Assembly: GCA_036556565.1 (NCBI GenBank)
Contig: DATBJE010000267.1
Coordinates: 166 to 64,165 of the forward strand
Source: Gaiellaceae bacterium
Lineage (GTDB): Bacteria > Actinomycetota > Thermoleophilia > Gaiellales > Gaiellaceae
DNA length: 64,000 bases
Direction: 5' to 3'
Shown: one piece after another, positions 2-29,091 of the stretch
Layout: each line of letters begins with the position of its first letter
Numbering within the stretch: position 1 is the stretch's first letter
Notes under the pieces: model-generated
What the model was told of the DNA's origin: nothing
The model's input: the letters and a program-made list of their open reading frames with translations, nothing else
Databases searched by the model: none
Program-made: the position numbers and the translations under genes

Positions 2-1099
2 GTGGTACCGCCTGCCGTTCGCGGAGTTGGCCAGGGTCAGGTTGAACTGGAACCGCCCCTCGACCAGCGGAAGACGCTCCACGTCGAAGCGGATCTCGGC
101 GCCTCCCTGTCCGTCCCACCCGAGCTCTCCCAGATCGCGCGCAGAGTGGCCGAGCAACGCGCCCGAGCTGTCGCGAAGCTCGACCGCGAGCACCGGCGGC
201 GGTGTCTCCTCGAGTCTCTCGACGCGAATGCGCAGGGAGAGCGGGTCCTCGGTCGCGAAGTACTCGCGCGGCTCGCCGTCCGCCCCGACCAGGCGCGCCT
301 CGGTGACACGCACCTCACCGGTGCCCCACTCCCGGAGACCCGCTGAGCGCTCCGCGGGGTTCTCCTCTCCGGCCAGGAGCACCTGGTACTGGCGGATCGC
401 CTCCGCGGTGTCGCCGTCGTACTCGACCCGACCCTGCCGAAGGAGCAGGGCGCGATCGCACATCCGCTCGAGCGCGGCGGCCGAGTGGGAGACGAATGCG
501 ATCGTCTTGCCCTGCTCGCGGAAGCCGAGAATCCGATCGATGCACTTCCGCTGGAACGCCTCGTCCCCCACGGCGAAGACCTCGTCGAGCAGCAGGATGT
601 CCGCGTCGACGTTGACGGCGATGGCAAAGCCCAGCCGCATGTGCATGCCCGCGGAGTACGTCCGGAGGGGAAGGTCGATGAAGCGGTCGAGCTCGCTGAA
701 CTCGACGATCTCCTCGAAGCGCCGGTCCACCTCCTGCTTGCGCAGGCCGTAGATCGACGCGCTGAGGTAGATGTTGTCCCGTCCGGTGAAGTCCTGGTGG
801 AAGCCCGCCCCGAGCTCGAGCAGCGAGCCGATGCGACCGTCCACCGAGAGGCTGCCGTTCGTCGGCCGGAAGACACCCGCGAGGAGCCGGAGCAGGGTCG
901 TCTTGCCGGACCCGTTCCGCCCCATGAACCCGACCGACTCTCCCGGCTCGATCGTGAACGAGACATCGCGCACCGCCCAGACCTCGACCGGCCGCAGGTG
1001 GCGCCGGCGGACGATCGCCTCCTTCAACGTCACGTGGCGCTGCGGGTAGACCCTGAACCGTCGGCTGATGTTCTCAGCGCGGATTGTTCCCGGAGTCAT
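2..1099 (-). CDS. wzt: ABC transporter ATP-binding protein, Wzt/TagH type, with C-terminal glycan-binding-like extension (3' end leaves the window)
   Basis: Absent from the ORF track (no in-window stop). Own minus-strand translation from ATG 1099..1097 gives MTPGTIRAENISRRF. Walker A GRNGSGKTT, signature YSAGMHMRLGFA, Walker B ILLLDEVFAVGD and H-loop FVSHS are present. A >110-aa beta-rich tail follows (EWGTGEVRVTEARL...GRFQFNLTL), resembling the Wzt C-terminal carbohydrate-binding domain. Confidence 0.85.
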   Translation of the reverse strand, partial: MTPGTIRAENISRRFRVYPQRHVTLKEAIVRRRHLRPVEVWAVRDVSFTIEPGESVGFMGRNGSGKTTLLRLLAGVFRPTNGSLSVDGRIGSLLELGAGFHQDFTGRDNIYLSASIYGLRKQEVDRRFEEIVEFSELDRFIDLPLRTYSAGMHMRLGFAIAVNVDADILLLDEVFAVGDEAFQRKCIDRILGFREQGKTIAFVSHSAAALERMCDRALLLRQGRVEYDGDTAEAIRQYQVLLAGEENPAERSAGLREWGTGEVRVTEARLVGADGEPREYFATEDPLSLRIRVERLEETPPPVLAVELRDSSGALLGHSARDLGELGWDGQGGAEIRFDVERLPLVEGRFQFNLTLANSANGRRYH

Positions 1100-1109
1100 C
1101 GCCCTTGGG

Positions 1110-1904
1110 TTACAGCGTCGCGGAGACCTGGTCGTCCATGCGGCTCGCGACGAAGACGCCGAGAACGAGCGAGACGGCACCCGCCACGACGCAGTAGATG
1201 ACGTCTCCGAGGGCGGGAAGCTCGCCGAAGAAGATCGGGTCGCGGATCGCCTGGACGAACGGCGTCACGAAGTTGACGTAGTAGATGACGTCGGCGACCC
1301 ACTCGTTGCCTTCGAGCCCTGGAAGTCGGTCGAGCGTGTAGAAGACCGGCGTGATGAAGAACCACGGCAGAAAGATCGTGATCATCAGGTGCTCGATGTC
1401 CCGATAGACCACCGTGAGGTACGCGAACGCGACGGCAAGGCCGCTCGCGAGCGCCACGAGCGGGATGACCAGCGGCAGCGCCGCCCAGAAGGTCGTCCTC
1501 GTCTCGGGAATGATCACGAGGTTCAAGACGATCGCGATCGCGAGCATCGCCCCCAGGGTCACGATGTTCGTCGCGACAACGGCGAGAGGCAGCATGTGTC
1601 GCGGGAAGCGCACCTGCTTGACCAGCATCGGCTGGGCGAACAGGCTGGAGCACGCCATCTGGACGGCCGAGTTGAAGAACACCCACGTCACGAGGCCGGA
1701 GACGACGAAGAGCGGATAGTGCGGGATGTCGAACGCCTTCAAGAGGACCGAGAAGACGAGGGTGTAGACGGCGATGAGCGCCAGCGGGTTCACCAGCGTC
1801 CACGCCAGTCCCAGGACCGACCCGCGGTATTTCCCGTGCAGCTCGCGTCGGAAGATGTTCAGGAAGAGGTCCGGGTACCGGACGACATCGGCATAGAGGC
1901 TCAA
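1110..1904 (-). CDS. wzm: ABC-2 type polysaccharide exporter permease (Wzm)
   Basis: 264 aa with about 6 hydrophobic helices. N-terminal FRRELHGKYRGSVLGLAWTLVNP motif is typical of Wzm/TagG. TTG start; ends 10 nt upstream of wzt. Confidence 0.85.
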   Translation of the reverse strand: MSLYADVVRYPDLFLNIFRRELHGKYRGSVLGLAWTLVNPLALIAVYTLVFSVLLKAFDIPHYPLFVVSGLVTWVFFNSAVQMACSSLFAQPMLVKQVRFPRHMLPLAVVATNIVTLGAMLAIAIVLNLVIIPETRTTFWAALPLVIPLVALASGLAVAFAYLTVVYRDIEHLMITIFLPWFFITPVFYTLDRLPGLEGNEWVADVIYYVNFVTPFVQAIRDPIFFGELPALGDVIYCVVAGAVSLVLGVFVASRMDDQVSATL

Positions 1905-12304: not shown

Positions 12305-12316
12305 GGGCGCCGCGCG

Positions 12317-12350: not shown

Positions 12351-12361
12351 CGCCCGCGCCC

Positions 12362-13570
12362 GTGGGAGCCGCCTCTGACAGCGTCGTCGGCATCTCTGTC
12401 GTGATTCCCTGCCTCAACGAGGAGGAGGGAGTCGGCGATGTCGTTCGCGCGGCCTGGACAGGGATCGAGCGGCTCGGGCTCACCGGTGAGGTGATCGTCG
12501 CCGACAACGGCTCGACCGACAACTCCGTCGCGATCGCCGAACGCGAAGGGGCAACGGTCATCCACGAGGAACAAAAGGGATACGGCAACGCGTACCTCGC
12601 TGGGCTCGCAGCCGCACGCGGCGAGCTGGTCGTGATCGGTGACGCCGACGGAACGTACGACTTCAGCAAGCTGGAGGACTTCAAGGCCGAGATCGACAAG
12701 GGCGCTGACATGGTGCTCGGGTCGAGGCTGCGAGGGCACATCGAGCGCGGAGCAATGCCGTGGCTACACCAGCACATCGGTAACCCGATACTCACGCGCC
12801 TGATCAACCGCTTCTTCGGGCTCAAGGTGTCGGACGCGTACTGCGGGATGCGGATGTTCCGACGGTCCGTTCTTCCGAGGCTCGAGCTTCAGGCGACCGG
12901 GATGGAGTTCGCGCTCGAGATGATCCTGAAGAGCGCCAAGCGGGGCCTCGTCTTCGCCGAGGTGCCGATCGACTATCACGCGCGGGCCGGCGAGTCGAAG
13001 CTGAACACTGTCCGGGACGGCTGGCGAAGCCTCCGATTCCTGCTCGTTCACAGCGCGACGTACCTGTTCCTGCTCCCGGGTGCGGTGCTGCTCGGGCTCG
13101 GGCTCCTGATCGTGATCCCGCTTGCCACGGGACCTGTCGACGTCTTTGGAAAGACTTTCTACATCCATCCGATGATCGTCGGCATCGCGGCGACGCTTGT
13201 CGGAGCGCAGATCGTCCAGCTTGGCCTGTTCGCAAGGACGTACGCCGTTCTGTACCTAGGCGACCAGGACCCGCCGCTCGAACGGGGCTGGTCCAAGGTT
13301 CGCCTCGAGCACGGCCTGCTGCTGGGCATCGTCCTCCTCCTCGTCGGCGCGGTCCTGCTGACGGCGATCTTCATCGAGTGGGCGAACGGCGGCTTCGGCG
13401 CGCTCGCCCGCGAGCATCAAGCACTGCTCGGCGTGCTACTCGTGTCGCTGGGCGTCCAAATCGTCTTCAGCTCGTTCTTCCTGAGCGTGCTCGGCCTCAG
13501 CAGCAACCTGCGCGAGGAGCGGGCCGCCGTTCGAGAGCCGGCCCGCGTGCGCGAGACCGTTCGCAGCTAG
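12362..13570 (+). CDS. Polyprenyl-phosphate glycosyltransferase-like GT2 (GtrB/ArnC/DPM1 type) with C-terminal transmembrane helices
   Basis: Start moved to GTG 12362 (the upstream part of the track ORF is antisense to 11294..12304). ISVVIPCLNEEEGV, VADNGSTDNS, GDADGTYD and KVSDAYCGMRMF, then about 4 TM helices. Confidence 0.8.
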   Translation: MGAASDSVVGISVVIPCLNEEEGVGDVVRAAWTGIERLGLTGEVIVADNGSTDNSVAIAEREGATVIHEEQKGYGNAYLAGLAAARGELVVIGDADGTYDFSKLEDFKAEIDKGADMVLGSRLRGHIERGAMPWLHQHIGNPILTRLINRFFGLKVSDAYCGMRMFRRSVLPRLELQATGMEFALEMILKSAKRGLVFAEVPIDYHARAGESKLNTVRDGWRSLRFLLVHSATYLFLLPGAVLLGLGLLIVIPLATGPVDVFGKTFYIHPMIVGIAATLVGAQIVQLGLFARTYAVLYLGDQDPPLERGWSKVRLEHGLLLGIVLLLVGAVLLTAIFIEWANGGFGALAREHQALLGVLLVSLGVQIVFSSFFLSVLGLSSNLREERAAVREPARVRETVRS

Positions 13571-13587
13571 CGCTTGCCCCGCCAGCG

Positions 13588-14409
13588 ATGACCCTCCTGT
13601 CCCGCTTCCGCCGGACGCCGGCGGAGCCGTGGCCCGCCGACCGGCCCGTCCGGTTCATCACCTCGTTCAACGGCCTCTTCTACGAAGCCAGCGGCAGGCG
13701 GTGCGCGAAGACGTTCCGGGAGCACAACCCGTCGTACGAGCTGTGGGCGTACGTGGAGTCGATCGACGACCAGGCCGAAACCGAGCTCGAGGGTCTCGGT
13801 GTCAGGGTCGTCCACCTCGAGGAGCTGCCGCTCCTGGGGGAGTTCCTCGAGCTCGCGCGAGATGTCATCCCGCAGGAGTTCGGCGGCGACGCGCCGCCCG
13901 AGATGTTCCCGGGTGAGGGCCCGCAGACCGGGGACATCTGGTTCCGGAAGAACATGTACCGCTGGTTCCGGAAGATCGTCGCGCTCGACCACACGGCCGG
14001 CGACTACGACGACGTGCTCTTCTGGTTGGACTGCGACTGCTTCGCCAAGCAGCCCCTGCCGCAGTCCGTGATCGAGGGGGCATTCGACGGTGCCGGCGTG
14101 ATCCGGATGAAGGCGAACCGCAAGCACACCGAGACCGGGCTCGTGGGGTACGACCTCGGTCGCCCCGGCGTCCGTGAGCTGATCGCAGCGATGCGGGACC
14201 ACTACATGTCTCGCGAGTTCGAGCGCTACAAGCGCTGGGACGACTGCATCACGCTCGATCTCTGCCTGAAGCGGCCGGATGCCCCCTCCGCGAGGGACAT
14301 CGCGAAGCGGGCGGTCGCGAATGCCGAGGTTCTGCCGACGACGCCGTTCGCCCCGTATCTCGAGCACGAGAAGGGGCTTCACAGCCGGCGCCTGGGACTG
14401 GTTCTCTGA
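13588..14409 (+). CDS. Uncharacterised protein, possible GT-A-like nucleotide-sugar transferase
   Basis: 273 aa from ATG 13588 (MTLLSRFRR). Rossmann-like FITSFNGLFYEASG; LFWLDCDCF could be a DxD-type motif. No family I can name. Sits immediately upstream of kdsB. Confidence 0.5.
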   Translation: MTLLSRFRRTPAEPWPADRPVRFITSFNGLFYEASGRRCAKTFREHNPSYELWAYVESIDDQAETELEGLGVRVVHLEELPLLGEFLELARDVIPQEFGGDAPPEMFPGEGPQTGDIWFRKNMYRWFRKIVALDHTAGDYDDVLFWLDCDCFAKQPLPQSVIEGAFDGAGVIRMKANRKHTETGLVGYDLGRPGVRELIAAMRDHYMSREFERYKRWDDCITLDLCLKRPDAPSARDIAKRAVANAEVLPTTPFAPYLEHEKGLHSRRLGLVL

Positions 14410-14434
14410 GCGAGGTGCCAGAATCGGCAGCCCT

Positions 14435-15163
14435 GTGAAGATCCTCGCCGTCGTCCCCGCCCGGTACGGCGCTACGCGCTTTCCCGGGAAGCCGCTGGCA
14501 GATCTCGGCGGCCGCCCGATCGTTCAGTGGGTCTACGAGGCGGCGGCGAGCTGCGACGACTTCGACGAGGTCGTCGTCGCAACAGAAAGCGAGGAGATCG
14601 CGAGCCGCGTGCGCGAGTTCGGCGGGGTCGTCGAGCTCACTCGCGACGACCACCGCACCGGCTCGGACCGGGTCGCGGAGGTCGCGGAGCGCCACGACGA
14701 CGCGGACGTCGTCGTCAACGTGCAGGGCGACCAGCCGTTCGCGACAGCGGAGATGCTGAGCGCACTCGTCGAGCCGTACGTCACAGGGGAGATGCCGGCG
14801 ATGACCACGCTCGCCTGCCCGCTGACGAACCGCGCGGACTGGGACGACCCGAACGTCGTCAAGGTCGTTTGTGACCGCCGCGGGTACGCCCTCTACTTCT
14901 CGCGCAGCCCGATCCCGCACCTGGGCGAGGGCGAGCCCGTCGAGGGACGCCATCACCTCGGCCTCTACGCCTTCACCCGCGACACCGTCTTGCGGTTTCC
15001 CTCTCTCGAGGAGACGCCGCTCGAGCGGCGGGAGCGGCTCGAGCAGCTTCGAGCGCTCGAGCATGGGATCCCGATCCGGGTCTGCGACACCGACCGCGCC
15101 GTGCTCGAGGTGAACACCCCAGAGGATCTGGAGCAAGCGCAGGAGCTCGTGGCCTCGCGATGA
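14435..15163 (+). CDS. kdsB: 3-deoxy-manno-octulosonate cytidylyltransferase (CMP-Kdo synthetase)
   Basis: GTG 14435 gives [58 protein letters not shown]. Confidence 0.9.
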
Positions 15164-16002
15164 CCGAGGTTCGGATCTCCGACGAGATCGCTGTCGGCGA
15201 GGGCCGGCCGCTGCTCGTGCTCGCCGGCCCGTGCGTCGTCGAGGAACGGGCCTTCATGGTCCGGATCGCACGGACGCTGAGGGAGATCACGGATCGACAC
15301 GGCGCGAAGCTCGTGTTCAAGGCGTCCTTCGACAAGGCCAACCGCTCGTCCGGAGCAACGGCTCGCGGGCCCGGCATGGACGACGGTCTCGCCATCTTGG
15401 CCTCGGTGAAGGAAGACGTGGGGGTCCCGGTCGTCACCGACATCCACGAGAGCTGGCAGGCGAAGCCGAGCGCCGAAGTCGTGGACGTCCTGCAGATTCC
15501 GGCCTTCCTCTCCAGGCAGACCGACCTTCTGAGCGCCGCCGGTGCGACGGGACTCCCGGTCAACGTCAAGAAGGGCCAGTTCCTCTCGCCGCCCGAGATG
15601 GGCAACGCGGTCAAGAAGCTCGAGGCGGCGGGCTGCGACCGCATCCTCCTGACGGAGCGAGGGACGACCTTCGGCTACAACGATCTCGTCGTCGACTTCC
15701 GCGGGCTCCCCCAGCTTCGCGAGCTCGGCTACCCGGTCGTCTTCGACGCGACGCACAGCGTCCAGCAGCCCGGCGGGCTCGGATCGGCGTCCGGCGGCCA
15801 GCGCGAGTACGTCCCGCACCTCGCCCGGGCGGCAGCCGCTGTGGGCATCGACGGGCTGTTCGTCGAGGTGCACGAGGATCCTGACTCGGCGCCGAGCGAC
15901 GGCCCGAACATGATCACGCCGGAGCAGTTCGACCGGCTGCTCGCGGATGTGGTCACCGTCCGCAACGCGCTCGCCGGGTCAGCTACCGTCCCCCGCGCAT
16001 GA
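15160..16002 (+). CDS. kdsA: 3-deoxy-8-phosphooctulonate synthase (Kdo8P synthase)
   Basis: [68 protein letters not shown] overlap with kdsB. Confidence 0.95.
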
Positions 16003-17468
16003 TCGAGCTTCGCGAGTGGATCGCATCGAAGCCCTTCGACGAGAAGCCCTGGCTGCTGCTCGGGAAGGGCCCCACCTTCGCCCGCCGCGGGGAGTTTCCG
16101 CTCGACGAGTACAACCTGATGGGGCTGAACGACGTCCCGACCGAGCAGAAGGTCGACGTCGCGCACGTCATCGACATCGACGTCGTCGAGAAGAACGCCG
16201 AGGCGCTGCGCGACAATGCCCGCTTCCTGGTCATCGCGCGCCGGCCGCACGTCGACTTCAAGCCTCGGGAGAAGCGCCTCGAGGACTACTTCGACCAGAT
16301 TCCCGTGCTGCGCGAGCTCGACGAGCAAGGGCGGCTGGTCTGGTACAACGCGCGCGGCTCGGCCCCGATCGACGACTCGCCGGAGATCGGCGTCCGCTTC
16401 TTCAGCTCGGAGGCCGCGATGAACATCCTCGGTGAGATGGGCGTCAGGAAAGTGCGCACGCTCGGGATCGACGGCGGCACCGACTACAGCACCGAGTTCT
16501 CCGCCCTGACCGCGCTGGAGAACGAACGACCGACCTTCGACGCGCAGTTCCGCGAGCTCGAGGACATCGTCGCCAAGTACGGCATCGATTACGACCCGAT
16601 CATCGAGCCGATGCGGGTCTTCTGCGGCTGCGACGAGTCGCAGCTTGTCGCGGCACGCGTGCTCGAGTACTCGATCCGGAAGCACGCGAGCCGACCGGTT
16701 CGCTTCTACCCGATGCTGAACCTGCCGACCCCGGTGCCGAAGGACCAGAAGAACCGGGGCCGCACCGGGTTCTCCTTCAGCCGCTTCCACATTCCGAAGC
16801 TGGCCGGCTACAAGGGTCGCGGCCTCTACGTCGACGCGGACATGCAGGTGTTCGGCGACATCGCCGAGCTCTGGGAGATCCCGTTCGAAGGCGCCAAGGT
16901 CATGTGCACGCGGCAGGACGAGCCGCCCGAGCAGTGGAAGGGCTCGAGCTGGTTCCATCCCGGCCGCCAGCTCAGCGTGATGATGCTCGACTGCGAGCGG
17001 CTCGACTGGGACATCGACGAGATCGTCGGCGGCCTGGACGAAGGCCGATACGACTACCAGCAGCTGATGTTCGAGCTCTGCATTGTCGACGAGGGCGAGA
17101 TCAACGACAACATCCCGCCGGTCTGGAACCACTTGGAGCACTACGTCGACGGCGAGACCAAGCTCCTCCATTACACGGTCGTTCCGACGCAGCCGTGGAA
17201 GAACGACAAGAGCCCCTTGAAGGCGCTGTGGGAGCCGGAGTTCCAGGAGGCTCGTGCGGCCGGCGTGGTGCACCCCCAGGAGGCCCTGCGCCTCGCGCGT
17301 CGCGGGCACATCAAACCGTCGCTGGCGCTGCCGAAGGAAAAGAAGGTCGCGACGGCGATGTCGCTCGCCGCGGCCCAGCTGCGGCGCGCCATGGGAATGG
17401 CAGAGCAGCGGATCGGCTTCTTCCGAAATCCGCGGGTGATGAAGCTCCGGGCTCGAGTCGGGCTCTGA
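15999..17468 (+). CDS. Two-domain glycosyltransferase: N-terminal GxGP(S/T)-type (CstII/Maf-DUF115-like) domain fused to a GT8 domain
   Basis: N-terminal [12 protein letters not shown]...YNLMGLND...[26 protein letters not shown] parallels the CstII pattern IIAGNGPSL...FRCNQ...LGYKEIYLSGIDF. C-terminal [32 protein letters not shown] and [17 protein letters not shown] indicate GT8 with a DxD motif. ATGA overlap with kdsA. Confidence 0.7.
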
Positions 17469-17481
17469 CCGCTCCCGTCGG

Positions 17482-18957
17482 GTGACGGGCTCCGACGACT
17501 CGACGGGCGCCGAGCGAAGCGTCCTCGACGCTCCCGACGCCGGTCAGAAGGTCATCCGCGGAGCCGCCGTGCGGTCACTCGGCTTCGCGGGCGGGAGGAT
17601 CCTCACGCTCCTGTCCGCGCCGTTCCTTCTCCGTCATCTCGGCGTGGTCGGGTTCGGCGGGTTCGCAGCGGTCCAGTCCATGATCGGAGTCGCCGCACTG
17701 GCGTCCGAGGGCGGCCTCACCGCAGTCGGAGTTCGCGAGTACTCCGTGCGCGACGACCGCGGACGCGCCTCGCTCATGCGCGCGATCCTGACGTTGCGGC
17801 TCGGCCTGTCCCTGCTGGGGGCCCTAGCCGCCGTCGCGCTCGCGCTGGCCGCCGGGTACTCGACGGCGCTCGTCGCGGGGGCGGCGTTGGCCGGGGTCGG
17901 GCTGGTGCTGCAGCTCCTTCAGCAGGGCCTCACGGTTCCCCTTGCGGCGCAGCTGCGATTCGGTGCGATCGCCGCGCTGGACTTCATCCGGCAGGCCTTG
18001 ACCGCGTCGGGAGTCGTGATCCTCGTCGCACTCGGCGCCTCGGTGACCGCGTTTCTCGCCATCTCGATCCCGGTCGGGATCATCGTCGGCATGGTGACGC
18101 TGATTGCCCTGCGCGGCCACCTCGTGCTGAGCGCCGGGACCGGGCGCTCCGAGCTCTCGGCCGTGGCTCGCGACGCGTTCGCAGTCGTCGGAGCGACCAT
18201 CCTCGGGTCGCTCTTCTACCGGCTTTCGGTCGTGCTGACTTCCCTGCTCTCCACGGAGGCGGAGACCGGCTACTTCGCCGCCTCCCAACGCGTGATCGAG
18301 ATGCTCCTGCCCTTCATCTCCCTGGTCAACTCGGCGACCTTCCCCGTGCTCTCCCGAGCGGCACACACCTCCTTCGACCGACTCGCGTACGGGCTCCAGC
18401 AGGTCTTCGACGTGAACCTCGTCATCGGCGGCTGGACGGGGCTGGTGCTGCTGCTCGGCGCGGAGCCGATCATCCGCTTCCTCGGCGGCTCCGAGTTCGA
18501 CGGGGCGATACCGGCGCTCCAGCTCCTGGCGGTCGGGATCGCCGCATCCTTCGTCAGTGCCGGCTGGGGAACGGCGCTGATCGCGATGCGCGAGCAGCGA
18601 GCGCTCTTCTTGGCGACGGCCTTCGGCGCGGCCGTCGGCGTAGCGCTTCTGGCGGTCTTGACCCCCAACGAGGGCGCGCAGGGGGCCGCCCTGGCCGTGG
18701 CGATCGGAGAAGTCGTGCGAGCGCTCGCGACAGGCCTGGCGCTCGTACGGGTGCGGCCCGAGCTTCGGCCGCGCCTTACCCTGGTACCCAAGCTCGTCGT
18801 CGCGCTCGGGCTCGCCGGCCTGGTCGCCTTGACGGGGATCAACGCCGTCGTTGTGTGTGTGCTCGCAAGCGGGATCTACTTCGGCCTCCTCGCCGTGACC
18901 GGCGGCCTCCCGCCCGAGGTGTGGGGCGCCTTCCGGGCCCTCGGGCGAGGCCGCTAG
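17482..18957 (+). CDS. Wzx-like polysaccharide flippase (MOP superfamily), copy 1
   Basis: 491 aa with about 12-14 TM helices. N-terminal VIRGAAVRSLGFAGGRILTLLSAPFLLRHLG is typical of Polysacc_synt proteins. Confidence 0.8.
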   Translation: MTGSDDSTGAERSVLDAPDAGQKVIRGAAVRSLGFAGGRILTLLSAPFLLRHLGVVGFGGFAAVQSMIGVAALASEGGLTAVGVREYSVRDDRGRASLMRAILTLRLGLSLLGALAAVALALAAGYSTALVAGAALAGVGLVLQLLQQGLTVPLAAQLRFGAIAALDFIRQALTASGVVILVALGASVTAFLAISIPVGIIVGMVTLIALRGHLVLSAGTGRSELSAVARDAFAVVGATILGSLFYRLSVVLTSLLSTEAETGYFAASQRVIEMLLPFISLVNSATFPVLSRAAHTSFDRLAYGLQQVFDVNLVIGGWTGLVLLLGAEPIIRFLGGSEFDGAIPALQLLAVGIAASFVSAGWGTALIAMREQRALFLATAFGAAVGVALLAVLTPNEGAQGAALAVAIGEVVRALATGLALVRVRPELRPRLTLVPKLVVALGLAGLVALTGINAVVVCVLASGIYFGLLAVTGGLPPEVWGAFRALGRGR

Positions 18958-18986
18958 CGCCCGGGCGGGGCTACACTCGCCCGCGC

Positions 18987-20276
18987 ATGGCCTCCAGAAC
19001 ACCACCACGGACGAGCCTGACGACCCGAACGACGTGCCGGGTCTGCAACTCGCCTGAGCTCGCGCCGGTCCTCTCACTCGGCGAGCAGTGCATCGCGGGC
19101 GCGTTCGCCGATCCGAACGGCAGCAAGCCGGTCGAGCGGCCGATCCCGCTCGAGCTCGTCCGCTGCGACATGACTGCCGACCAGGACGCATGCGGCCTCC
19201 TGCAGACGCGCCACACGGTCCCTGCAGCGATCCTCTATTCGAACTACTGGTACCGCAGCGGCGTGAACCGGACGATGACCGAGAACCTCCACGAGATCGC
19301 CCAGGAGGCGGAGAGCCTCGTCCAGCTGCGGCCGGGAGATCTGGTCGTGGACATCGGCTGCAACGACGGCACCCTCTTTGACGGCTATCAGACAGAAGGT
19401 CTCCGCTATCTCGGCTTCGACCCCTCGGACGTCACGCGCTACGCGGTGGAGAAGGGCTACGACGTCGTCCGCGACTTCTACTCGTTCGAGCGGCTCCAGC
19501 AGCACGCCCCGGACCGCAAGGCGCGCGTGATCACGAGCGTCGCGATGTTCTACGACCTCGAGGACCCGAGCGCGTTCGTGGAGGACGTGGTGAGTGCGTT
19601 GTCGGAAGACGGCGTGTGGGCCATGGAGCTCCACTACATGCCGACGATGCTCGAGCGGAACGCGTTCGACGTGATCGTGCACGAGCATCTCGAGTACTAC
19701 TCATTGGCCGTCATCGAGCGCCTGATCACGCAGGCAGGGCTCGAGACCATCAAGGCGAGCCTCAACGACGTCAACGGCGGATCGATCCGCCTGTTCTTCG
19801 CGCGAGCAGGCCGGATCCCGATCGACGAGGACGACCAGCGGGCGCTCCAGCAGATCCGGATCCGCGAGTTCGAGCTCGCGCTCGAGACACCTGAGCCGTA
19901 CGAGCGGTTCAAAGAGGGCGCCGAGCGGATCAAGACGGAGCTCCACGACATCTGCACCAAGCTGCATGCCGAAGGCAAGACGATTCACATCTACGGCGCC
20001 TCGACCAAGGGGAACACGATTCTCCAGTACGCAGACCTGGACGTCTCGGTGATCCCCTACGCCGCCGACCGCAATCCCGACAAGTGGGGGTCGAGGACGA
20101 TCCGGACGAACATCCCGATCATCGGCGAGGAGGAGTCGCGGCAGATGAAGCCCGACTACTACCTCGTCCTTCCCTGGCACTTCCTGGACGAGTTCCTCGA
20201 GCGCGAGAAGGACTATCTCGACGGCGGCGGCCGCTTCATCGTTCCTCTCCCCGAGGTCCGCATCCTGCCGGAGTGA
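18987..20276 (+). CDS. NDP-hexose C-methyltransferase (TylC3/TcaB9-like)
   Basis: ATG 18987. N-terminal Cys cluster CRVCNS...VRCDMTADQDACGLLQ, YSNYWYRSG, VVDIGCNDGTL SAM loop. C-terminal IHIYGASTKGNTILQY...YYLVLPWHF matches the C-methyltransferase C-terminal domain. Confidence 0.8.
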   Translation: MASRTPPRTSLTTRTTCRVCNSPELAPVLSLGEQCIAGAFADPNGSKPVERPIPLELVRCDMTADQDACGLLQTRHTVPAAILYSNYWYRSGVNRTMTENLHEIAQEAESLVQLRPGDLVVDIGCNDGTLFDGYQTEGLRYLGFDPSDVTRYAVEKGYDVVRDFYSFERLQQHAPDRKARVITSVAMFYDLEDPSAFVEDVVSALSEDGVWAMELHYMPTMLERNAFDVIVHEHLEYYSLAVIERLITQAGLETIKASLNDVNGGSIRLFFARAGRIPIDEDDQRALQQIRIREFELALETPEPYERFKEGAERIKTELHDICTKLHAEGKTIHIYGASTKGNTILQYADLDVSVIPYAADRNPDKWGSRTIRTNIPIIGEEESRQMKPDYYLVLPWHFLDEFLEREKDYLDGGGRFIVPLPEVRILPE

Positions 20277-21273: not shown

Positions 21274-22025
21274 GCAACCTCGACTTCGCGGTGCTGTCGA
21301 GCCGGCAGCAGGTCGACGACGCCTGGGAGAAGTTGCGCCGCGATGCGGTCGTGGACGAGCTGCCGCCGGGTCTCGTTGCGCGCGCGAAGCGGCTCCTTCG
21401 GCGTCCGAATGCCGCTACAGCGCTGGTTCCGGACCCGAGGAAGAGCTGGGACGTGCTGCGGGCGCTCGAGGCGATTCAGGAGCGGTGCGATCGCGGGGAC
21501 GCCGTACTGGACATGGGCAGCGTGGGGTGCGCCATCGCTCCCGCGCTGCACCGACTCGGCTATCGCGACCTCCACGGGATCGATCTTGACCCACAGGTCG
21601 AGCTGATGGCGCACGCCGACGCGGTCGACTACCGCGTCGGCGACATGACCGCCACGCCGTACGACGACGCGTCGTTCTGCGCGATCACGGCAATCAGCGT
21701 GATCGAGCACGGCTTCCAGCCCGAGCCGCTGCTGCGCGAGGTCGCACGCCTCCTCAGGCCGGGCGGTTTCTTCTTCTTCTCGACCGACTACTGGCCGGAC
21801 AAGATCGACACAAGCCACATCCGTCTCTTCGACATGACCTGGGACATCTTCAGCGCCGACGAGATCGAGCGCTTCGTCGCGGCCGGGGAGAAGGTGGGGC
21901 TCCAACCCGCCTCGGCCTCCTTTGCGGCCGGCCTCCGCGAGGTTGGCGAGCCGACCATCTCGTACCAGGGCTTCGACTACACGTTCCTGGCCGGAGCCCT
22001 CGTCCGTGCGCGTGGGACGATGTGA
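21270..22025 (+). CDS. Class I SAM-dependent methyltransferase
   Basis: TTG start overlapping the previous stop. VLDMGSVGCAIAP, FCAITAISVIEH, LLRPGGFFFFSTD. Confidence 0.7.
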   Translation: MSNLDFAVLSSRQQVDDAWEKLRRDAVVDELPPGLVARAKRLLRRPNAATALVPDPRKSWDVLRALEAIQERCDRGDAVLDMGSVGCAIAPALHRLGYRDLHGIDLDPQVELMAHADAVDYRVGDMTATPYDDASFCAITAISVIEHGFQPEPLLREVARLLRPGGFFFFSTDYWPDKIDTSHIRLFDMTWDIFSADEIERFVAAGEKVGLQPASASFAAGLREVGEPTISYQGFDYTFLAGALVRARGTM

Positions 22026-22738
22026 TCGCCGTGGTCGAGGCCGTGACGTTCGACTTCTGGAACACGCTCATGTGGGAGGAGCCCGGCTCGCTGCGCGAGA
22101 AGCGGCTCGAAGCCTGGCGTGAGTCACTCGGGGCGGTGGACGAAGAGGCACTGCAGGAGGCGCACGACGCCGCGCACCAGGAGTACGTCGACTCGTGGGT
22201 CGCCGGACGGCAGTTCCGCGTGGAGGAGGCCGTCGCCCACATGCTCAGCGGCTCCAACGGCTCGCTCGGCAGAGACGCCGCGCCGGTGCTGGTCGAGGGC
22301 TTCAGCGAGGGCGGCCGGCGGGCGGCGGTGCATCCCAGCGACGGCGTCGGCGAGTGCCTGGCATCGCTGAAGGCGGGCGGCACCCGGATCGGGATCGTGT
22401 GCGACATCGGGCTGACGCCGTCTCCGGTCGTGCGCGAGCTGCTCGAGCGGGCGGGGCTCCTCGACTACTTCGACGGAATGTCGTTCTCGGACGAGGTCGG
22501 GCATTACAAGCCGCACCCGGCGATCTTCGAGCACGCCCTGGCGGGACTGGGCGGCGTCCCGGCCGAGCGCGCCGCCCACGTCGGCGACCGCGTCCGCACC
22601 GACGTCGACGGCGCGGCCGCGATGGGCATGAAGGCAGTCAGGTACAACGGCGTCTACGAGGACGAGCTGGCCGGGCAGCGCGAGGAGGTCGTCGTCCGCG
22701 ACCTTCGCGAGCTTCCACGGCTCCTCGGGGTCGAGTGA
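22022..22738 (+). CDS. HAD-superfamily hydrolase (subfamily IA-like); candidate Kdo8P phosphatase surrogate
   Basis: VTFDFWNTL motif I, GIVCDIG motif II, HVGDRVRTDVDGAAAMGM motif IV. GTGA overlap upstream and 1-nt overlap with kdsD. Confidence 0.7.
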   Translation: MIAVVEAVTFDFWNTLMWEEPGSLREKRLEAWRESLGAVDEEALQEAHDAAHQEYVDSWVAGRQFRVEEAVAHMLSGSNGSLGRDAAPVLVEGFSEGGRRAAVHPSDGVGECLASLKAGGTRIGIVCDIGLTPSPVVRELLERAGLLDYFDGMSFSDEVGHYKPHPAIFEHALAGLGGVPAERAAHVGDRVRTDVDGAAAMGMKAVRYNGVYEDELAGQREEVVVRDLRELPRLLGVE

Positions 22739-23700
22739 TGGCGGGCGCCGGGGACTTCCTCCGTCACGAAGCCGAGGCGATCGCGGCGGCGGCGGACCGG
22801 CTCGACGAGGCACGCTTCGCCCAGGCCGTCGACATCCTCGCGAGCTGCACGGGGCTCGTGGCCACGACCGGCGCGGGCACCTCCGGGATCGTGGCGCGCA
22901 AGATCGCGGCAACGCTCACGAGCACCGGCACGCCGGCGCACTACGTCCACCCCACCGACGCGCTGCACGGCGGGCTGGGCGTGATCGGCCGCCAGGAGGT
23001 CGTGATCGCCGTCAGCAACAGCGGGGAGACGGAGGAGATCTCCGTCCTGCTGCCCTACCTGCGGAGCCGTGAGGTCGAGGTGATCGCGATCGTCGGAAAC
23101 CTCGATTCGACGCTCGCGCGCGAGGCGGCCGTCGCGCTCGACTCGTTCGCCGAGCGCGAGGCCGGGCCGCATGGGCTCGTGCCGACTGCCAGCGTGGCGG
23201 TCGCGCTTGCGATCGCCGATGCCCTCGCGCTGACCGTGATGGAGACGAAGGGCATCACGCGTGACGCGTTCGCCGCGAACCACCCGTCGGGCCGACTCGG
23301 GCGGCGCCTGACCCTCCGGGTGTCCGACGTGATGCACGGGGAGGGCGTGCAGCCGACGATCGGCGCGGACGCGCCGCTCGTGGAGGTGGTCGGCAGGATC
23401 AGCGACGGCGGCCTCGGCGCGGTGAACGTCGTCGACGAGCAGTCCCGCCTCCTGGGGATCGTCACCGACGGCGACCTCAGACGGACGCTCCAACGCTGCA
23501 GTCCGGAGCAGCTCGCGGAGCTCCGTGCCGAGGAGATCATGACGCGCGACCCCGTCGTGATCGGCCCGGACGCCATGGCCTACGAGGCGCTGAGGCTGAT
23601 GGAGGATCGCCCGTCACAGATCGCCGTCCTGCCGGTGGTCGCCGACGGCCTGTGCGTCGGGCTCGTCCGGCTCCACGACCTCGTCCGAATCGGGCTCTAG
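22738..23700 (+). CDS. kdsD: Arabinose-5-phosphate isomerase (SIS + tandem CBS; KdsD/KpsF/GutQ family)
   Basis: ATG 22738. VATTGAGTSGIVARKIAATL, VIAVSNSGETEE, FAANHPSGRLGRRL, then two CBS repeats. Confidence 0.9.
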   Translation: MAGAGDFLRHEAEAIAAAADRLDEARFAQAVDILASCTGLVATTGAGTSGIVARKIAATLTSTGTPAHYVHPTDALHGGLGVIGRQEVVIAVSNSGETEEISVLLPYLRSREVEVIAIVGNLDSTLAREAAVALDSFAEREAGPHGLVPTASVAVALAIADALALTVMETKGITRDAFAANHPSGRLGRRLTLRVSDVMHGEGVQPTIGADAPLVEVVGRISDGGLGAVNVVDEQSRLLGIVTDGDLRRTLQRCSPEQLAELRAEEIMTRDPVVIGPDAMAYEALRLMEDRPSQIAVLPVVADGLCVGLVRLHDLVRIGL

Positions 23701-23704
23701 GCCG

Positions 23705-24511
23705 ATGCGAATCCCGGGCATCCGCCGCCTCGGTCGACCGTCGCTGCACGACCGTTACGACGAGGGCCAGACGGCGTCGGAGCTCATCGACCGCTTGTCG
23801 GACGACGACCTGGAGCGTCTGAACGCCCTGCTGCCGTGGCGCGCCTTCACGGTCGACTCGCGTGGCCGCCCCTTCGGCGGGACCGCCTGGCGCGGGAAGC
23901 GCGATCGTCCGTCGGAGCTGCCCGACCGGCGAATCCTCCTGTTTCAGGAGCGCTTCGACCTCTCGGACAAGCACGTGCTCGAGGTGGGCTGCTTCGAAGG
24001 CATCCACACGATCGCGCTGTGCCGGCTCGCCGAGCGCGTCACTGCCGTCGACGCCCGCGTGGAGAACGTCGCCAAGACGATCGTCCGCTGCGGGCTCTTC
24101 GACGTGCGGCCGCGGGTGGCGGTGTGCGACGTCGAGGCGGTCGAGGACGACGACCTGCTGCACGCCGACCTCTGCCACCACGTCGGTGTCCTCTATCACC
24201 TCGACGATCCGGCCACCCATCTGCGCCGTCTGGGCACCTGGATCTCGCGGGGCGTCATGCTCGACACGCACTACGCGCGCGACGAGGACGCGAGCGGGGA
24301 GTATGCGGTCGACGGCGAGCGCTTCCGTTATCGCCCCTACCGGGAGGGAGGGCGCCGGGATGTCTTCTCCGGGATCCGGCCGTCGTCCAAGTGGCTTCGT
24401 CTCGACGACATCGAGGCTCTCCTGCGGGGAGGCGGGTTTGCGACGGTCGAGATCGTCGAGAAGCGTGACGAGCGCAACGGTCCGCGCGTCCTGCTCTTCG
24501 CCGAGCGGTAG
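23705..24511 (+). CDS. Class I SAM-dependent methyltransferase
   Basis: VLEVGCFEGIHTIAL SAM loop and HVGVLYHLDDP, with a CmoB/DUF1698-like layout. Confidence 0.65.
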   Translation: MRIPGIRRLGRPSLHDRYDEGQTASELIDRLSDDDLERLNALLPWRAFTVDSRGRPFGGTAWRGKRDRPSELPDRRILLFQERFDLSDKHVLEVGCFEGIHTIALCRLAERVTAVDARVENVAKTIVRCGLFDVRPRVAVCDVEAVEDDDLLHADLCHHVGVLYHLDDPATHLRRLGTWISRGVMLDTHYARDEDASGEYAVDGERFRYRPYREGGRRDVFSGIRPSSKWLRLDDIEALLRGGGFATVEIVEKRDERNGPRVLLFAER

Positions 24512-29045: not shown

Positions 29046-29091
29046 GCGCTCGAAGCGCGATGCGCCGAACTCGCCCTTTCCGACCTGCGAC

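What the first reader, a model, noticed from the sequence alone, without database searches (positions are those of the whole stretch)
15999..17468. CstII/Maf-like GxGP(S/T) domain fused to GT8 directly after kdsA: candidate new Kdo (ulosonic acid) transferase
Seen:
- A 489-aa protein whose start overlaps the kdsA stop (ATGA).
- Residues ~1-210 carry [16 protein letters not shown] and [13 protein letters not shown].
- Residues ~215-489 are a GT8-type domain ([10 protein letters not shown] DxD).

Known: the CMP-sialic-acid transferase CstII (GT42) and Maf/DUF115 proteins begin IIAGNGPSL...FRCNQ and have ...YLSGIDF. They use CMP-activated nonulosonic acids.

Inference: the N-terminal domain may use CMP-Kdo made by the adjacent genes, and the GT8 half may add the next hexose. 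That would be a bifunctional cap or linker synthase of a type I do not know to be described.
Basis: partly seen in the sequence, partly recalled or inferred. Interest (0 to 1): 0.7.

Follow-up and report, generated by a model that had tools for sequence, protein, structure and literature searches.

The report
Putative new Kdo transferase fused to GT8
A two-domain sugar-adding enzyme sits directly after the genes that make activated Kdo; its unannotated front half folds like bacterial sialic-acid transferases, so it is probably an undescribed kind of Kdo transferase, found even in Gram-positive-type bacteria that are not expected to use this sugar.

Summary
ORF 15999-17468 (+) encodes 489 aa, and its ATG overlaps the kdsA stop (ATGA). 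All quoted motifs are present.

- **C-terminal half (aa ~205-440):** a genuine GT8 fold with invariant D279-x-D281 and H391. A 50-aa basic helical tail follows.
- **N-terminal half (aa 1-212):** no Pfam, NCBIfam, PHROG or PDB sequence match. Its AlphaFold model (pLDDT 88) has CstII and CstI (GT42 sialyltransferases) as its two top PDB hits. It also matches viral proteins annotated DUF115/MptE-like.
- **Motifs:** the donor-site motifs line up with CstII (GKGP~GNGPS, N44~N31, S136~S132, GID~GID, Y163~Y162). The catalytic His188 has no counterpart.
- **Distribution:** about 665 clusters at 50% identity. The domain occurs alone or fused to GT8, GT2, GT4 or methyltransferase modules.
- **Context:** in 17 of 18 Actinomycetota/Armatimonadota loci the gene lies beside kdsA and/or kdsB, often with kdsD and a phosphatase. 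It is the only glycosyltransferase consistently linked to them.
- **Elsewhere:** the Planctomycetota loci examined have no kdsA or kdsB within 10 kb. There the gene travels with a methyltransferase, in several loci beside Wzm/Wzt(Wzt_C).

Best reading (about 0.6): a CMP-Kdo-dependent Kdo transferase of GT42/Maf-like fold, fused to a retaining hexosyltransferase. Activity is unproven.

The parts
15999..17468 (+). Two-domain glycosyltransferase gene (489 aa). Its start overlaps the kdsA stop (ATGA).
   Evidence: 1608 homologues; the 34 aligned are near-full-length fusions down to 53% identity. AlphaFold model pLDDT 86.6, pTM 0.81.
15999..16634 (+). N-terminal domain (aa 1-212): unannotated, with a GT42/DUF115-like fold. 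Proposed CMP-Kdo-dependent Kdo transferase module.
   Evidence: - No Pfam, NCBIfam, PHROG or PDB sequence hit.
- Model pLDDT 88.
- Foldseek top hits are CstII 2x61 (E 2.4e-4, TM 0.50) and CstI 2p56, plus DUF115/MptE-like viral proteins.
- Invariant residues: G22 K23 G24 P25 N44 H56 D59 R81 P83 H84 S136 E138 G156 D158 G159 G160 Q183.
- hhalign against GT42.
16611..17318 (+). GT8 domain (aa ~205-440): retaining GT-A hexosyltransferase module with invariant D279-A-D281 and H391.
   Evidence: PF01501 E 2e-7. Foldseek hits WbbM, LgtC, LARGE1, GlyE and glycogenin, all at probability 1.0. Invariant residues.
17319..17465 (+). C-terminal basic helical tail (aa 441-489): 11 K/R against 2 D/E, with no transmembrane segment. 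Inferred to hold the enzyme at the membrane surface.
   Evidence: Helices 446-471 and 473-487 at low pLDDT. Charge and hydrophobicity. The sequence is poorly conserved but stays basic in homologues.
14279..15163 (+). kdsB (CMP-Kdo synthetase). The family match begins at aa 54 of this ORF, so the true start is probably later.
   Evidence: NF003952 E 7e-88, PF02348.
15160..16002 (+). kdsA (Kdo-8-phosphate synthase).
   Evidence: NF003543 E 2.5e-118, TIGR01362 above cut-off.
22022..22738 (+). HAD-IA phosphatase, a candidate Kdo-8-P phosphatase playing the KdsC role.
   Evidence: PF00702/PF13419. Conserved with the kds genes in 11 loci. L081 has an Inositol_P phosphatase in this position instead. 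The role is inferred.
22735..23700 (+). kdsD-like arabinose-5-phosphate isomerase (SIS + CBS domains).
   Evidence: PF01380 E 1e-23, PF00571. Conserved beside the module.
23705..24511 (+). Class I SAM methyltransferase (motif LEVGCFEG). It is the most widely conserved partner of the fusion across phyla.
   Evidence: PF13489 and related families. Sequence. Homologue within 10 kb in 29 of 79 loci, often directly adjacent. Fused to the N-domain in other proteins.
17482..18957 (+). Wzx-like flippase candidate, 14 bases downstream of the fusion.
   Evidence: Weak NF041871 Wzx_EPS match, E 7e-5. Homologues in L001-L005. Polysacc_synt genes occupy the same position in L081 and L082.
2..1904 (-). Wzt (ABC ATPase with a Wzt_C carbohydrate-binding domain, cut by the window edge) and Wzm. 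This is an exporter of the kind that recognises capped glycans.
   Evidence: PF00005 + PF14524 Wzt_C (E 6.5e-11) and PF01061. The same pair sits directly upstream of the fusion in Pirellulales L083/L010.

Best explanation
The gene encodes a soluble, membrane-associated enzyme with two glycosyltransferase modules.

- **N-terminal module (aa 1-212).** It has the single-domain fold of the GT42 sialyltransferases and Maf/DUF115 proteins. It most likely binds CMP-beta-Kdo and transfers Kdo to a lipid-linked glycan acceptor. The CMP-Kdo would come from the co-transcribed KdsD, KdsA, phosphatase and KdsB.
- **Proposed donor site.** It would be formed by the G22-K-G-P25 loop, N44, S136, G156-I-D158 and a mobile lid (aa ~160-185) carrying Y163. 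Because the CstII base His188 is absent, another conserved residue must act as base. Candidates are D181, E138, H56/D59 or H84.
- **C-terminal module.** The GT8 domain (D279-x-D281, H391) adds an alpha-linked hexose from a UDP-sugar.
- **Associated methyltransferase.** The conserved SAM methyltransferase probably methylates one of the two residues.

Shown here: the domain folds, the conserved motifs, the gene linkage and the family distribution. Inferred: the donor, the acceptor, the stereochemistry, the order of the two transfers, and whether the product is a chain cap, a linker or an in-chain disaccharide.
For: 1. **Fold.** CstII and CstI are the two best PDB matches to the N-domain model (E 2.4e-4 and 1.1e-3, TM 0.50-0.52). 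All later hits are much weaker. Twenty viral proteins match at E<=1e-3, including ones annotated MptE-like (PF01973) and DUF115.
2. **Motif collinearity with GT42.** hhalign aligns 170 columns (score 23.1, P 0.013) against 12.9 +/- 2.2 for shuffled controls (maximum 18.7, n=30). S136 and D158 are 22 residues apart, the same spacing as CstII S132 and D154. The Maf residues shown by mutation to be essential are a Ser and an Asp 23 residues apart (bioRxiv 10.1101/2020.06.03.131540).
3. **Lid.** The low-confidence but conserved segment at aa 160-185 lies where CstII has its donor lid.
4. **Linkage to the Kdo pathway.** kdsA and/or kdsB lie within 10 kb in 17 of 18 Actinomycetota/Armatimonadota loci, usually immediately upstream. 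The cultured Nocardioides astragali carries MT-HAD-KdsD-KdsB-KdsA-fusion as one contiguous block.
5. **No competing transferase.** No other glycosyltransferase is conserved with the kds genes. The compact cluster L082 holds only a Bac_transf, two GT2s and this fusion.
6. **Independent catalytic module.** The N-domain occurs alone and fused to GT8, GT2, GT4 and methyltransferase modules.
7. **Cap-recognising exporter.** Wzm/Wzt with a Wzt_C domain lies next to the fusion in Pirellulales and at the edge of this window. Wzt carbohydrate-binding modules are known to recognise terminal Kdo caps (PMC11231755).
8. **Precedent.** Maf enzymes of this fold can transfer Kdo from CMP-Kdo (bioRxiv 10.1101/2020.06.03.131540).
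Against: - No biochemical data exist.
- HMMER detects no similarity to PF06002 (GT42) or PF01973 (DUF115).
- HHalign's own probability for the match is only 3%.
- CstII His188 falls in a deletion, and Tyr156 is replaced by Gly.
- The fold superfamily includes the pyrophosphokinase MptE, and a thiamin pyrophosphokinase is a weak hit.
- In most Planctomycetota and Proteobacteria loci no kds gene is nearby. In the alphaproteobacterial loci the kds genes look housekeeping, because L052 keeps the same synteny without the N-domain.
- The universal partner is a methyltransferase. The MT-N-domain-GT2 architecture parallels the MT-kinase terminators WbdD and ORF6-O7 (PMC11231755).
- Two ORFs of unknown function in this window (13567-14409 and 20281-21273) cannot be excluded as alternative Kdo transferases, although they recur only in L002.
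Confidence: 0.6

Rival explanations
1. The N-domain is an ATP-dependent kinase or pyrophosphokinase of the MptE / thiamin-pyrophosphokinase type. Together with the conserved methyltransferase it would install a methyl-phosphate cap on an ABC-transporter-exported glycan, as WbdD and ORF6-O7 do with unrelated kinase folds.
For: - PF01973-annotated 'MptE-like' proteins and a thiamin pyrophosphokinase (3ihk, probability 0.90) are structural neighbours.
- A methyltransferase is the most widespread partner and is fused N-terminally to the N-domain in MT-Ndom-GT2 and MT-Ndom-GT2-GT4-GT4 proteins.
- Wzt with a Wzt_C domain lies adjacent in several loci.
- MT-kinase terminators are described in PMC11231755.
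Against: - It leaves the tight, translationally coupled link to a complete CMP-Kdo pathway in Actinomycetota without a Kdo transferase.
- The best and most specific solved-structure matches are the CMP-sugar transferases CstII and CstI, not kinases (TM 0.50-0.52 against 0.38).
- The GxGP, Asn, Ser, GxD and Tyr pattern matches the CstII donor site.
- The methyltransferase also accompanies GT8-only homologues that lack the N-domain.
Confidence: 0.12
2. The N-domain is a GT42/Maf-like transferase for a different activated sugar, such as another CMP-ulosonic acid. Kdo would then be added by some other, non-conserved enzyme.
For: The fold says only 'CMP-ulosonic-acid-type transferase'. Maf enzymes are promiscuous in their donor (bioRxiv 10.1101/2020.06.03.131540). 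Most Gram-negative loci have no kds genes nearby.
Against: The kds set is the only sugar-activation pathway conserved next to the gene across Actinomycetota. No NeuB-, Pse- or Leg-type genes turned up among the window genes scanned. Gram-negative hosts already make CMP-Kdo for lipopolysaccharide (established knowledge), so a missing local kds gene says little.
Confidence: 0.08
3. The N-domain has lost catalysis. It would serve as an acceptor-binding, oligomerisation or regulatory module for the GT8 enzyme.
For: The catalytic His188 and Tyr156 of CstII are not conserved. The GT8 subfamily also works without the N-domain in many genomes.
Against: About 20 residues are invariant down to 51% identity, and they cluster in the positions of the CstII donor-binding motifs. 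The domain occurs as a stand-alone protein and is fused to unrelated GT2 and GT4 modules.
Confidence: 0.08
4. The GT8 domain itself is the Kdo transferase, and the N-domain does something unrelated.
For: The GT8 domain is as tightly linked to the kds genes as the N-domain. In L038 the GT8 gene, not the N-domain gene, directly follows kdsA.
Against: The invariant DxD and His form a metal site typical of UDP-sugar-using GT8 enzymes. By established knowledge, known CMP-sugar transferases lack a DxD motif and need no metal. GT8-only homologues show no kds linkage apart from the apparently housekeeping synteny in L052 and a partial kdsA match in L060.
Confidence: 0.03

Closest known systems
CstII / CstI, Campylobacter jejuni sialyltransferases (CAZy GT42; PDB 1ro7, 2x61, 2p56)
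   Same: - Best structural matches to the N-domain.
- Same order of motifs: GxGP(S/T) loop, Asn after strand 2, Ser at a helix start, G-I-D 22 residues later, and a Tyr in the following lid.
- They use a CMP-activated 2-keto-3-deoxy acid sugar.
   Different: - No detectable HMMER similarity.
- Catalytic His188 and Tyr156 are absent.
- Lys replaces Asn in the glycine loop.
- The N-domain is shorter (about 210 against about 260 aa) and is fused to a second transferase.
- The predicted donor is the 8-carbon Kdo, not the 9-carbon sialic acid.
Maf / Maf_flag10 flagellin nonulosonic-acid transferases (Pfam PF01973, DUF115, 'MptE-like'; PDB 5mu5)
   Same: Same fold superfamily: viral proteins annotated PF01973/DUF115 match the model at probability 1.0. 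An essential Ser and Asp lie about 22-23 residues apart. Two Maf enzymes transfer Kdo from CMP-Kdo in E. coli (bioRxiv 10.1101/2020.06.03.131540).
   Different: No PF01973 HMM match. The flanking Maf domains are absent and there are no flagellar genes nearby. The context is polysaccharide assembly, so the acceptor is presumably a glycan and not a protein.
KrkA (GT140 Kdo transferase + ribosyltransferase, E. coli K13 capsule) and WbbB (GT99 beta-Kdo terminator + two polymerising transferases)
   Same: One polypeptide combines a Kdo-transferase module with one or more other transferase modules, to build or cap a glycan (PMC12887879, PMC11231755).
   Different: Their Kdo modules are modified GT-B-like folds that use an Asp nucleophile. 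Neither appears among the 50 best structural matches of the N-domain.
ORF7-O4 (GT137), the alpha-Kdo chain terminator of Klebsiella O4
   Same: A recently found, previously unannotated CMP-Kdo-dependent transferase in an ABC-transporter (Wzt carbohydrate-binding module) system (PMC11231755).
   Different: It is described as two beta/alpha/beta domains resembling methyltransferases, followed by a TPR-like bundle and a coiled coil. The N-domain is a single CstII-like domain. The two sequences were not compared here because the ORF7-O4 sequence was not at hand.
WbbM (DUF4422 + GT8, Klebsiella O2a galactan polymerase; PDB 6u4b)
   Same: Best structural hit of the full-length model and one of only two PDB sequence-profile hits. 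It is an N-terminal transferase module fused to a C-terminal GT8.
   Different: The N-terminal module is a different family (DUF4422, UDP-Galf-dependent). Only the GT8 half corresponds.

Membership tests
GT42 (CstII/CstI sialyltransferases, Pfam PF06002) | Sequence match to the family profile (PF06002) | tested here: not met
   No Pfam hit for aa 1-214 at E<=10, for the query or for 22 homologues. A profile of the family finds no GT42 chain in the PDB.
GT42 (CstII/CstI sialyltransferases, Pfam PF06002) | Single-domain alpha/beta/alpha fold of CstII | tested here: met
   Foldseek top two hits are 2x61_B (E 2.4e-4, probability 1.0, TM 0.50) and 2p56 (E 1.1e-3, TM 0.52). Later hits have TM 0.2-0.3, except 3ihk at 0.38.
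GT42 (CstII/CstI sialyltransferases, Pfam PF06002) | Donor-binding motifs: GNGPS loop, Asn31, Ser132, Gly152-Ile-Asp154, Tyr162 | tested here: met
   hhalign pairs G22-K-G-P-T with G8-N-G-P-S, N44 with N31, GID with GID, and Y163 with Y162. S136 and D158 keep the 22-residue spacing of S132 and D154. All are invariant or at least 90% conserved. The mapping comes from alignment, not from 3-D superposition.
GT42 (CstII/CstI sialyltransferases, Pfam PF06002) | Catalytic base His188 and phosphate-contacting Tyr156 | tested here: not met
   His188 falls in a 12-residue deletion of the N-domain. Tyr156 aligns with the invariant G159/G160.
GT42 (CstII/CstI sialyltransferases, Pfam PF06002) | Uses a CMP-activated ulosonic acid donor | not testable with these tools
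   Only indirect evidence: the conserved linkage to kdsD, kdsA, kdsB and a phosphatase.
Maf / DUF115 / MptE-like (Pfam PF01973) | Sequence match to PF01973 | tested here: not met
   No hit at E<=10.
Maf / DUF115 / MptE-like (Pfam PF01973) | Fold shared with PF01973 proteins | tested here: met
   BFVD hits annotated 'MptE-like' (A0A6J5PVH5, E 1.2e-6) and 'DUF115' (A0A5B8IGA8, E 3.2e-4), all at probability 1.0.
Maf / DUF115 / MptE-like (Pfam PF01973) | Flanking Maf N- and C-terminal domains, and a flagellar gene context | tested here: not met
   The domain starts at residue 1 and is followed directly by GT8. The neighbours are polysaccharide genes.
GT8 (LgtC, glycogenin, WbbM C-terminal domain; Pfam PF01501) | Profile match above the curated cut-off | tested here: met
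   31.3 bits against a 24.3 cut-off, but only aa 258-304 are aligned.
GT8 (LgtC, glycogenin, WbbM C-terminal domain; Pfam PF01501) | GT-A fold of GT8 enzymes | tested here: met
   133 PDB matches at E<=0.001. Nearly all of the top 50 are GT8-type or closely related GT-A enzymes (WbbM, LgtC, LARGE1, GlyE, UGGT, glycogenin), with target-normalised TM up to 0.60.
GT8 (LgtC, glycogenin, WbbM C-terminal domain; Pfam PF01501) | DxD metal/UDP motif and a downstream metal-binding His | tested here: met
   D279, D281 and H391 (within [11 protein letters not shown]) are invariant in 34 sequences. Assigning H391 as the metal ligand rests on motif position and my knowledge of GT8, not on superposition.
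Known Kdo transferases GT30 (WaaA) | Match to WaaA-type profiles | tested here: not met
   No Pfam or NCBIfam hit of that kind for any part of the protein.
Known Kdo transferases GT99 / GT107 / GT140 (WbbB, KpsC/KpsS, KrkA) | Modified GT-B-like two-lobe fold | tested here: not met
   The N-domain is a single alpha/beta domain. None of these solved structures appears among its 50 best Foldseek hits or in the PDB sequence searches.
GT137 (ORF7-O4 alpha-Kdo terminator) | Two methyltransferase-like beta/alpha/beta domains, a TPR-like bundle and a coiled coil | not tested
   No sequence or structure was available here. The published description (PMC11231755) does not fit the single CstII-like domain.

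The most novel reading that the evidence does not exclude
The N-domain founds a new glycosyltransferase family of dedicated CMP-Kdo transferases. It would be built on the GT42/Maf fold but use a different catalytic base. It would make methylated Kdo-hexose caps or repeat units, and so reveal Kdo-containing surface polysaccharides in monoderm Actinomycetota (Gaiellales, Thermoleophilia, Acidimicrobiia, Nocardioides). Kdo is otherwise regarded as a hallmark of Gram-negative envelopes.
Probability: 0.5. Interest if true: 0.75.

Novelty: new variant of a known kind. Interest (0 to 1): 0.62.

Why it matters
Kdo transferases have turned out to be surprisingly diverse. GT99, GT107, GT137 and GT140 were each recognised only in the last decade, and each was reported as a new family (PMC11231755, PMC12887879).

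This domain is invisible to Pfam, NCBIfam and PHROGs, yet it forms about 665 clusters at 50% identity across at least five phyla. If it transfers Kdo, four things follow:

- A further, structurally distinct Kdo-transferase family would exist, built on the sialyltransferase/Maf fold.
- Hundreds of 'hypothetical' domains in polysaccharide loci would gain an annotation.
- Actinomycetota that carry a complete, dedicated CMP-Kdo pathway would be shown to make Kdo glycans.
- A new enzyme would be available for making Kdo glycoconjugates.

The cultured Nocardioides astragali CGMCC 4.7327 carries the whole seven-function block, so the prediction is directly testable.

Tried and rejected
- **Family and PDB sequence searches of the N-domain.** Pfam, NCBIfam and PHROGs scans gave nothing, alone, at E<=10, or across 23 homologues. 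The only recurring 'hit', NHase_alpha at E 0.0026, is noise. PDB profile searches found only GT8 entries for the C-terminal half and a chance Cmr3 match for the N-terminal half.
- **Phage lead.** Stand-alone N-domain P0222 lies in a phage- or mobile-element-like contig (L080). tblastn against 50,697 phage records and a pattern scan of IMG/VR found no relatives, so I could not tell whether this is recurrent.
- **Names for stand-alone N-domains.** All ten looked up are unnamed or 'hypothetical'.
- **Rhizobium LpcB.** I recalled this outer-core Kdo transferase as a possible relative. The paper library has almost nothing on it and no sequence was retrievable, so the lead is untested.
- **Other window ORFs as Kdo transferases.** ORFs 13567-14409 and 20281-21273 gave no informative Pfam or PDB match and recur only in L002. 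They are unlikely but not excluded.
- **GT137-like reading of the methyltransferase 23705-24511.** Rejected. The protein has ordinary SAM-methyltransferase profile hits and a LEVGCFEG...VDAR motif.
- **Literature on Kdo glycans or kds genes in Actinomycetota.** Nothing relevant was found.
- **Residue-level 3-D superposition on CstII.** Not possible, because model coordinates are not exposed.
Full report
**1. The observation**

ORF 15999-17468 on the + strand encodes 489 aa. Its GC3 of 0.93 is a clear coding signal in this 70% GC window. Bases 15999-16002 read ATGA, so the start codon overlaps the stop of the upstream ORF 15160-16002. That ORF is KdsA (NF003543, E 2.5e-118), and KdsB precedes it (NF003952, E 7e-88). 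All quoted peptide motifs are present at the stated positions.

**2. The C-terminal half**

- Pfam finds only GT8 (PF01501), above its cut-off but over aa 258-304 alone.
- The AlphaFold model built on 34 homologues is confident (pLDDT 86.6, pTM 0.81).
- In Foldseek against the PDB its best matches are GT8-type GT-A enzymes: WbbM, LgtC, LARGE1, GlyE, UGGT and glycogenin, all at probability 1.0.
- D279, D281 and H391 are invariant.
- Residues 441-489 form a poorly conserved helical tail with 11 K/R against 2 D/E and no transmembrane segment. I take this to be a membrane-surface anchor, which is an inference.

**3. The N-terminal half: sequence searches**

Residues 1-212 match nothing in Pfam, NCBIfam or PHROGs, even at E<=10 and across 23 family members. 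A family profile also finds nothing in the PDB by sequence. The domain is nevertheless very conserved. About 20 residues are invariant down to 51% identity: G22 K23 G24 P25, N44, H56, D59, R81, P83, H84, W115 Y116, S136, E138, G156, D158, G159, G160 and Q183.

**4. The N-terminal half: structure**

- A model of the domain alone is confident (pLDDT 88, pTM 0.87).
- Its two best PDB matches are the GT42 sialyltransferases CstII (2x61, E 2.4e-4, TM 0.50) and CstI (2p56, E 1.1e-3, TM 0.52).
- Most later hits have TM 0.2-0.3. The exception is a thiamin pyrophosphokinase (3ihk, TM 0.38, probability 0.90).
- Against predicted viral structures it matches 20 proteins at E<=1e-3. These include entries annotated 'MptE-like' (PF01973) and 'DUF115', and small uncharacterised proteins at TM up to 0.72.

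**5. Profile-profile test**

I aligned 142 diverse N-domains and 94 GT42 proteins and compared them with hhalign. The result was a collinear 170-column alignment with score 23.1 and P 0.013. Thirty column-shuffled controls gave 12.9 +/- 2.2 (maximum 18.7), and the reversed alignment gave 14.4. HHalign's own probability is only 3%, so the sequence signal is weak. The alignment still pairs the functional motifs:

| N-domain | CstII |
|---|---|
| G22-K-G-P-T | G8-N-G-P-S |
| N44 | N31 |
| G156-I-D158 | G152-I-D154 |
| Y163 | Y162 |

S136 and D158 keep the 22-residue spacing of S132 and D154. In Maf enzymes, a Ser and an Asp 23 residues apart are essential (bioRxiv 10.1101/2020.06.03.131540). The conserved but low-confidence segment at aa 160-185 lies where CstII has its donor lid. 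Two features fail: His188, the CstII base, falls in a deletion, and Tyr156 is replaced by Gly. The domain is thus a distinct family with a changed catalytic apparatus, not a GT42 member in the strict sense.

**6. Distribution and architectures**

An exhaustive profile search of 1.84 billion representative proteins finds 665 clusters at E<=1e-3. They include stand-alone proteins of about 200 aa and many fusions. The architectures seen are Ndom-GT8, Ndom-GT8-MT, MT-Ndom-GT8, Ndom-GT8-GT2, MT-Ndom-GT2 and MT-Ndom-GT2-GT4-GT4. The domain therefore behaves as an independent catalytic module in multi-module glycan-assembly proteins.

In species-representative genomes it occurs in Actinomycetota, Planctomycetota, Armatimonadota, Nitrospirota and Pseudomonadota. 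The closest genome relatives are Gaiellaceae MAGs at 80-82% identity, with extended synteny. The window probably comes from that family, which is an inference.

**7. Gene context**

The window holds a complete CMP-Kdo pathway:

- KdsB (14279-15163) and KdsA (15160-16002).
- A HAD phosphatase (22022-22738).
- A SIS+CBS arabinose-5-phosphate isomerase (22735-23700).

Across 18 Actinomycetota/Armatimonadota loci, KdsA is present in 17, the fusion in 16, KdsB in 13 and the HAD phosphatase in 11. Every other glycosyltransferase of the window recurs in 8 loci or fewer, and at paralogue-level identity.

- The cultured Nocardioides astragali CGMCC 4.7327 has MT-HAD-KdsD-KdsB-KdsA-fusion as one contiguous block.
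- In the compact locus L082, the only transferases beside the kds genes are a Bac_transf initiating enzyme, two GT2s and this fusion.
- In L081 an inositol-phosphatase-family gene replaces the HAD.

Because these lineages are not expected to make lipopolysaccharide (established knowledge, not tested here), a dedicated Kdo pathway needs a Kdo transferase. The CstII-like domain is the only conserved candidate.

**8. Context in Gram-negative phyla**

Kds genes are usually absent from the neighbourhood. That is uninformative, because such cells make CMP-Kdo anyway. Here the constant partner is a class I SAM methyltransferase homologous to window 23705-24511. This methyltransferase also accompanies GT8-only homologues that have no N-domain within 10 kb.

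In Pirellulales the order is MT-MT-Wzm-Wzt(Wzt_C)-fusion-GT2. Wzm/Wzt with a Wzt_C domain recurs in other loci, and it lies at the left edge of this window (2-1904, minus strand). Wzt carbohydrate-binding modules recognise terminal caps, including Kdo caps (PMC11231755). The actinobacterial loci carry Wzx-, Wzy- and Bac_transf-type genes instead, so an in-chain role is equally possible.

**9. Mechanism proposed**

The N-domain binds CMP-beta-Kdo through the glycine loop, N44, S136, D158 and a closing lid with Y163, and transfers Kdo to a lipid-linked glycan. A conserved acidic or His residue substitutes for His188. The GT8 domain adds an alpha-hexose from a UDP-sugar through its DxD/His metal site. 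The partner methyltransferase methylates one of the residues. The folds, motifs and linkage are shown. The donor, acceptor, stereochemistry and order of transfers are inferred. My confidence that the N-domain is a Kdo transferase is about 0.6.

**10. Rivals**

- **Kinase or pyrophosphokinase.** The fold superfamily contains MptE. The MT-Ndom-GT2 architecture, together with a Wzt_C exporter, recalls the methyltransferase-kinase terminators WbdD and ORF6-O7 (PMC11231755). This reading leaves the actinobacterial Kdo pathway without a transferase, and the solved-structure matches favour CMP-sugar transferases (0.12).
- **A different CMP-sugar donor** (0.08).
- **A non-catalytic domain** (0.08).
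- **GT8 as the Kdo transferase** (0.03).

The last three are each less consistent with the conservation pattern and with the known chemistry.

**11. Comparison with known systems**

| Known Kdo transferase | Fold or type | Relation to the N-domain |
|---|---|---|
| GT30 (WaaA) | WaaA-type | No profile match |
| GT99, GT107, GT140 | Modified GT-B-like, Asp nucleophile | Not among the top structural hits |
| GT137 (ORF7-O4) | Two methyltransferase-like domains | Description does not fit; not compared directly |
| Plant GT29 candidate | Sialyltransferase-like | Not tested |

(Sources: PMC11231755, PMC12887879, PMC11288761.) Maf enzymes of the DUF115 fold transfer Kdo promiscuously onto flagellin (bioRxiv 10.1101/2020.06.03.131540), so the chemistry on this fold has a precedent. 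A dedicated, glycan-directed family fused to GT8 does not, as far as the libraries searched here show. I rate it a new variant of a known kind.

**12. Limits**

- No coordinates were accessible, so residue mapping rests on alignment rather than superposition.
- CAZy could not be queried.
- The claim that the host lineages lack lipopolysaccharide was not checked genome-wide.

Noticed in passing
L080 7396-9337 (Logan contig SRR30892882_10307, 27.5 kb): A stand-alone N-domain (P0222, 206 aa) sits between a Methyltransf_24 gene and a separate GT8 gene. The contig also carries a D5_N/PriCT primase-helicase and many small ORFs, so it looks like a phage or mobile element. The MT/N-domain/GT8 trio can therefore travel as three separate genes on mobile DNA.
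   Followed up: partly
BFVD hits to window 15999-16634: The best structural relatives of the N-domain are small uncharacterised viral proteins. They include one from Pyramimonas orientalis virus (TM 0.67/0.72) and several from uncultured Caudovirales, plus a Mimiviridae DUF115 protein. From my own knowledge, Pyramimonas is a prasinophyte whose scales are rich in Kdo and 5-O-methyl-Kdo. The match could be a coincidence or a lead.
   Followed up: no
window 23705-24511 (+), with homologues in 29 of 79 loci: A class I SAM methyltransferase (LEVGCFEG motif) is the most widely conserved neighbour of the fusion across phyla. It also accompanies GT8-only homologues. The MT-GT8 pair may be the older module, to which the N-domain was added.
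   Followed up: partly
window 2-1904 (-): Wzt (ABC ATPase with a Wzt_C carbohydrate-binding domain, cut by the window edge) and Wzm. This cap-recognising O-polysaccharide-type exporter lies in what is probably a Gaiellaceae (Actinomycetota) genome, about 14 kb from the Kdo module.
   Followed up: partly
window 1-64000: Nearly the whole 64 kb window is one or more surface-glycan loci. It holds at least 9 GT2 and 9 GT4 genes or modules, about 11 methyltransferases (four of them FkbM-type), two Wzx-like genes (17482-18957 and 38108-39985 on the minus strand), a Wzz-like gene (61374-62294, minus), a Bac_transf initiating enzyme (56595-58082, minus), three GDP-mannose-dehydratase-like genes and an ATP-grasp gene (48751-49818).
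   Followed up: partly
window 8063-10249 (-), 26946-29591 (-), 11948-13570 (+): Two large PMT_2-like (GT-C type) membrane proteins and a GT2 resembling polyprenyl-phosphate hexose synthases (AglJ / dolichyl-phosphate hexose transferase). Together they suggest an additional extracytoplasmic glycosylation step that uses lipid-phosphate sugar donors.
   Followed up: no
window 18855-20276 (+) and 26384-26968 (-): A three-domain sugar C-methyltransferase (Methyltransf_13/_23/_14) and an RmlC-like 3,5-epimerase. They hint at a branched-chain or C-methylated deoxysugar in the same glycan.
   Followed up: no
window 13567-14409 (+), 20281-21273 (+), 58130-59293 (-): ORFs with no confident family or PDB match. 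The first two lie inside the Kdo block and recur only in Gaiellaceae locus L002. ORF 20281-21273 has a faint GT4 N-terminal-like signal.
   Followed up: partly
L038 5734-6669 (-) and 10037-10726 (+); L046 9884-10708 and 10889-12226: Natural variants of the architecture. In Acidimicrobiia L038 the N-domain and GT8 are separate genes on opposite strands flanking HAD-kdsD-kdsB-kdsA. In Capsulimonadaceae L046 a stand-alone N-domain precedes a second N-domain fused to GT8.
   Followed up: no
L081 3573-4412: In one actinobacterial locus an inositol-monophosphatase-family gene occupies the position of the HAD phosphatase beside kdsD. This suggests a non-orthologous replacement of the Kdo-8-phosphate phosphatase.
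   Followed up: no
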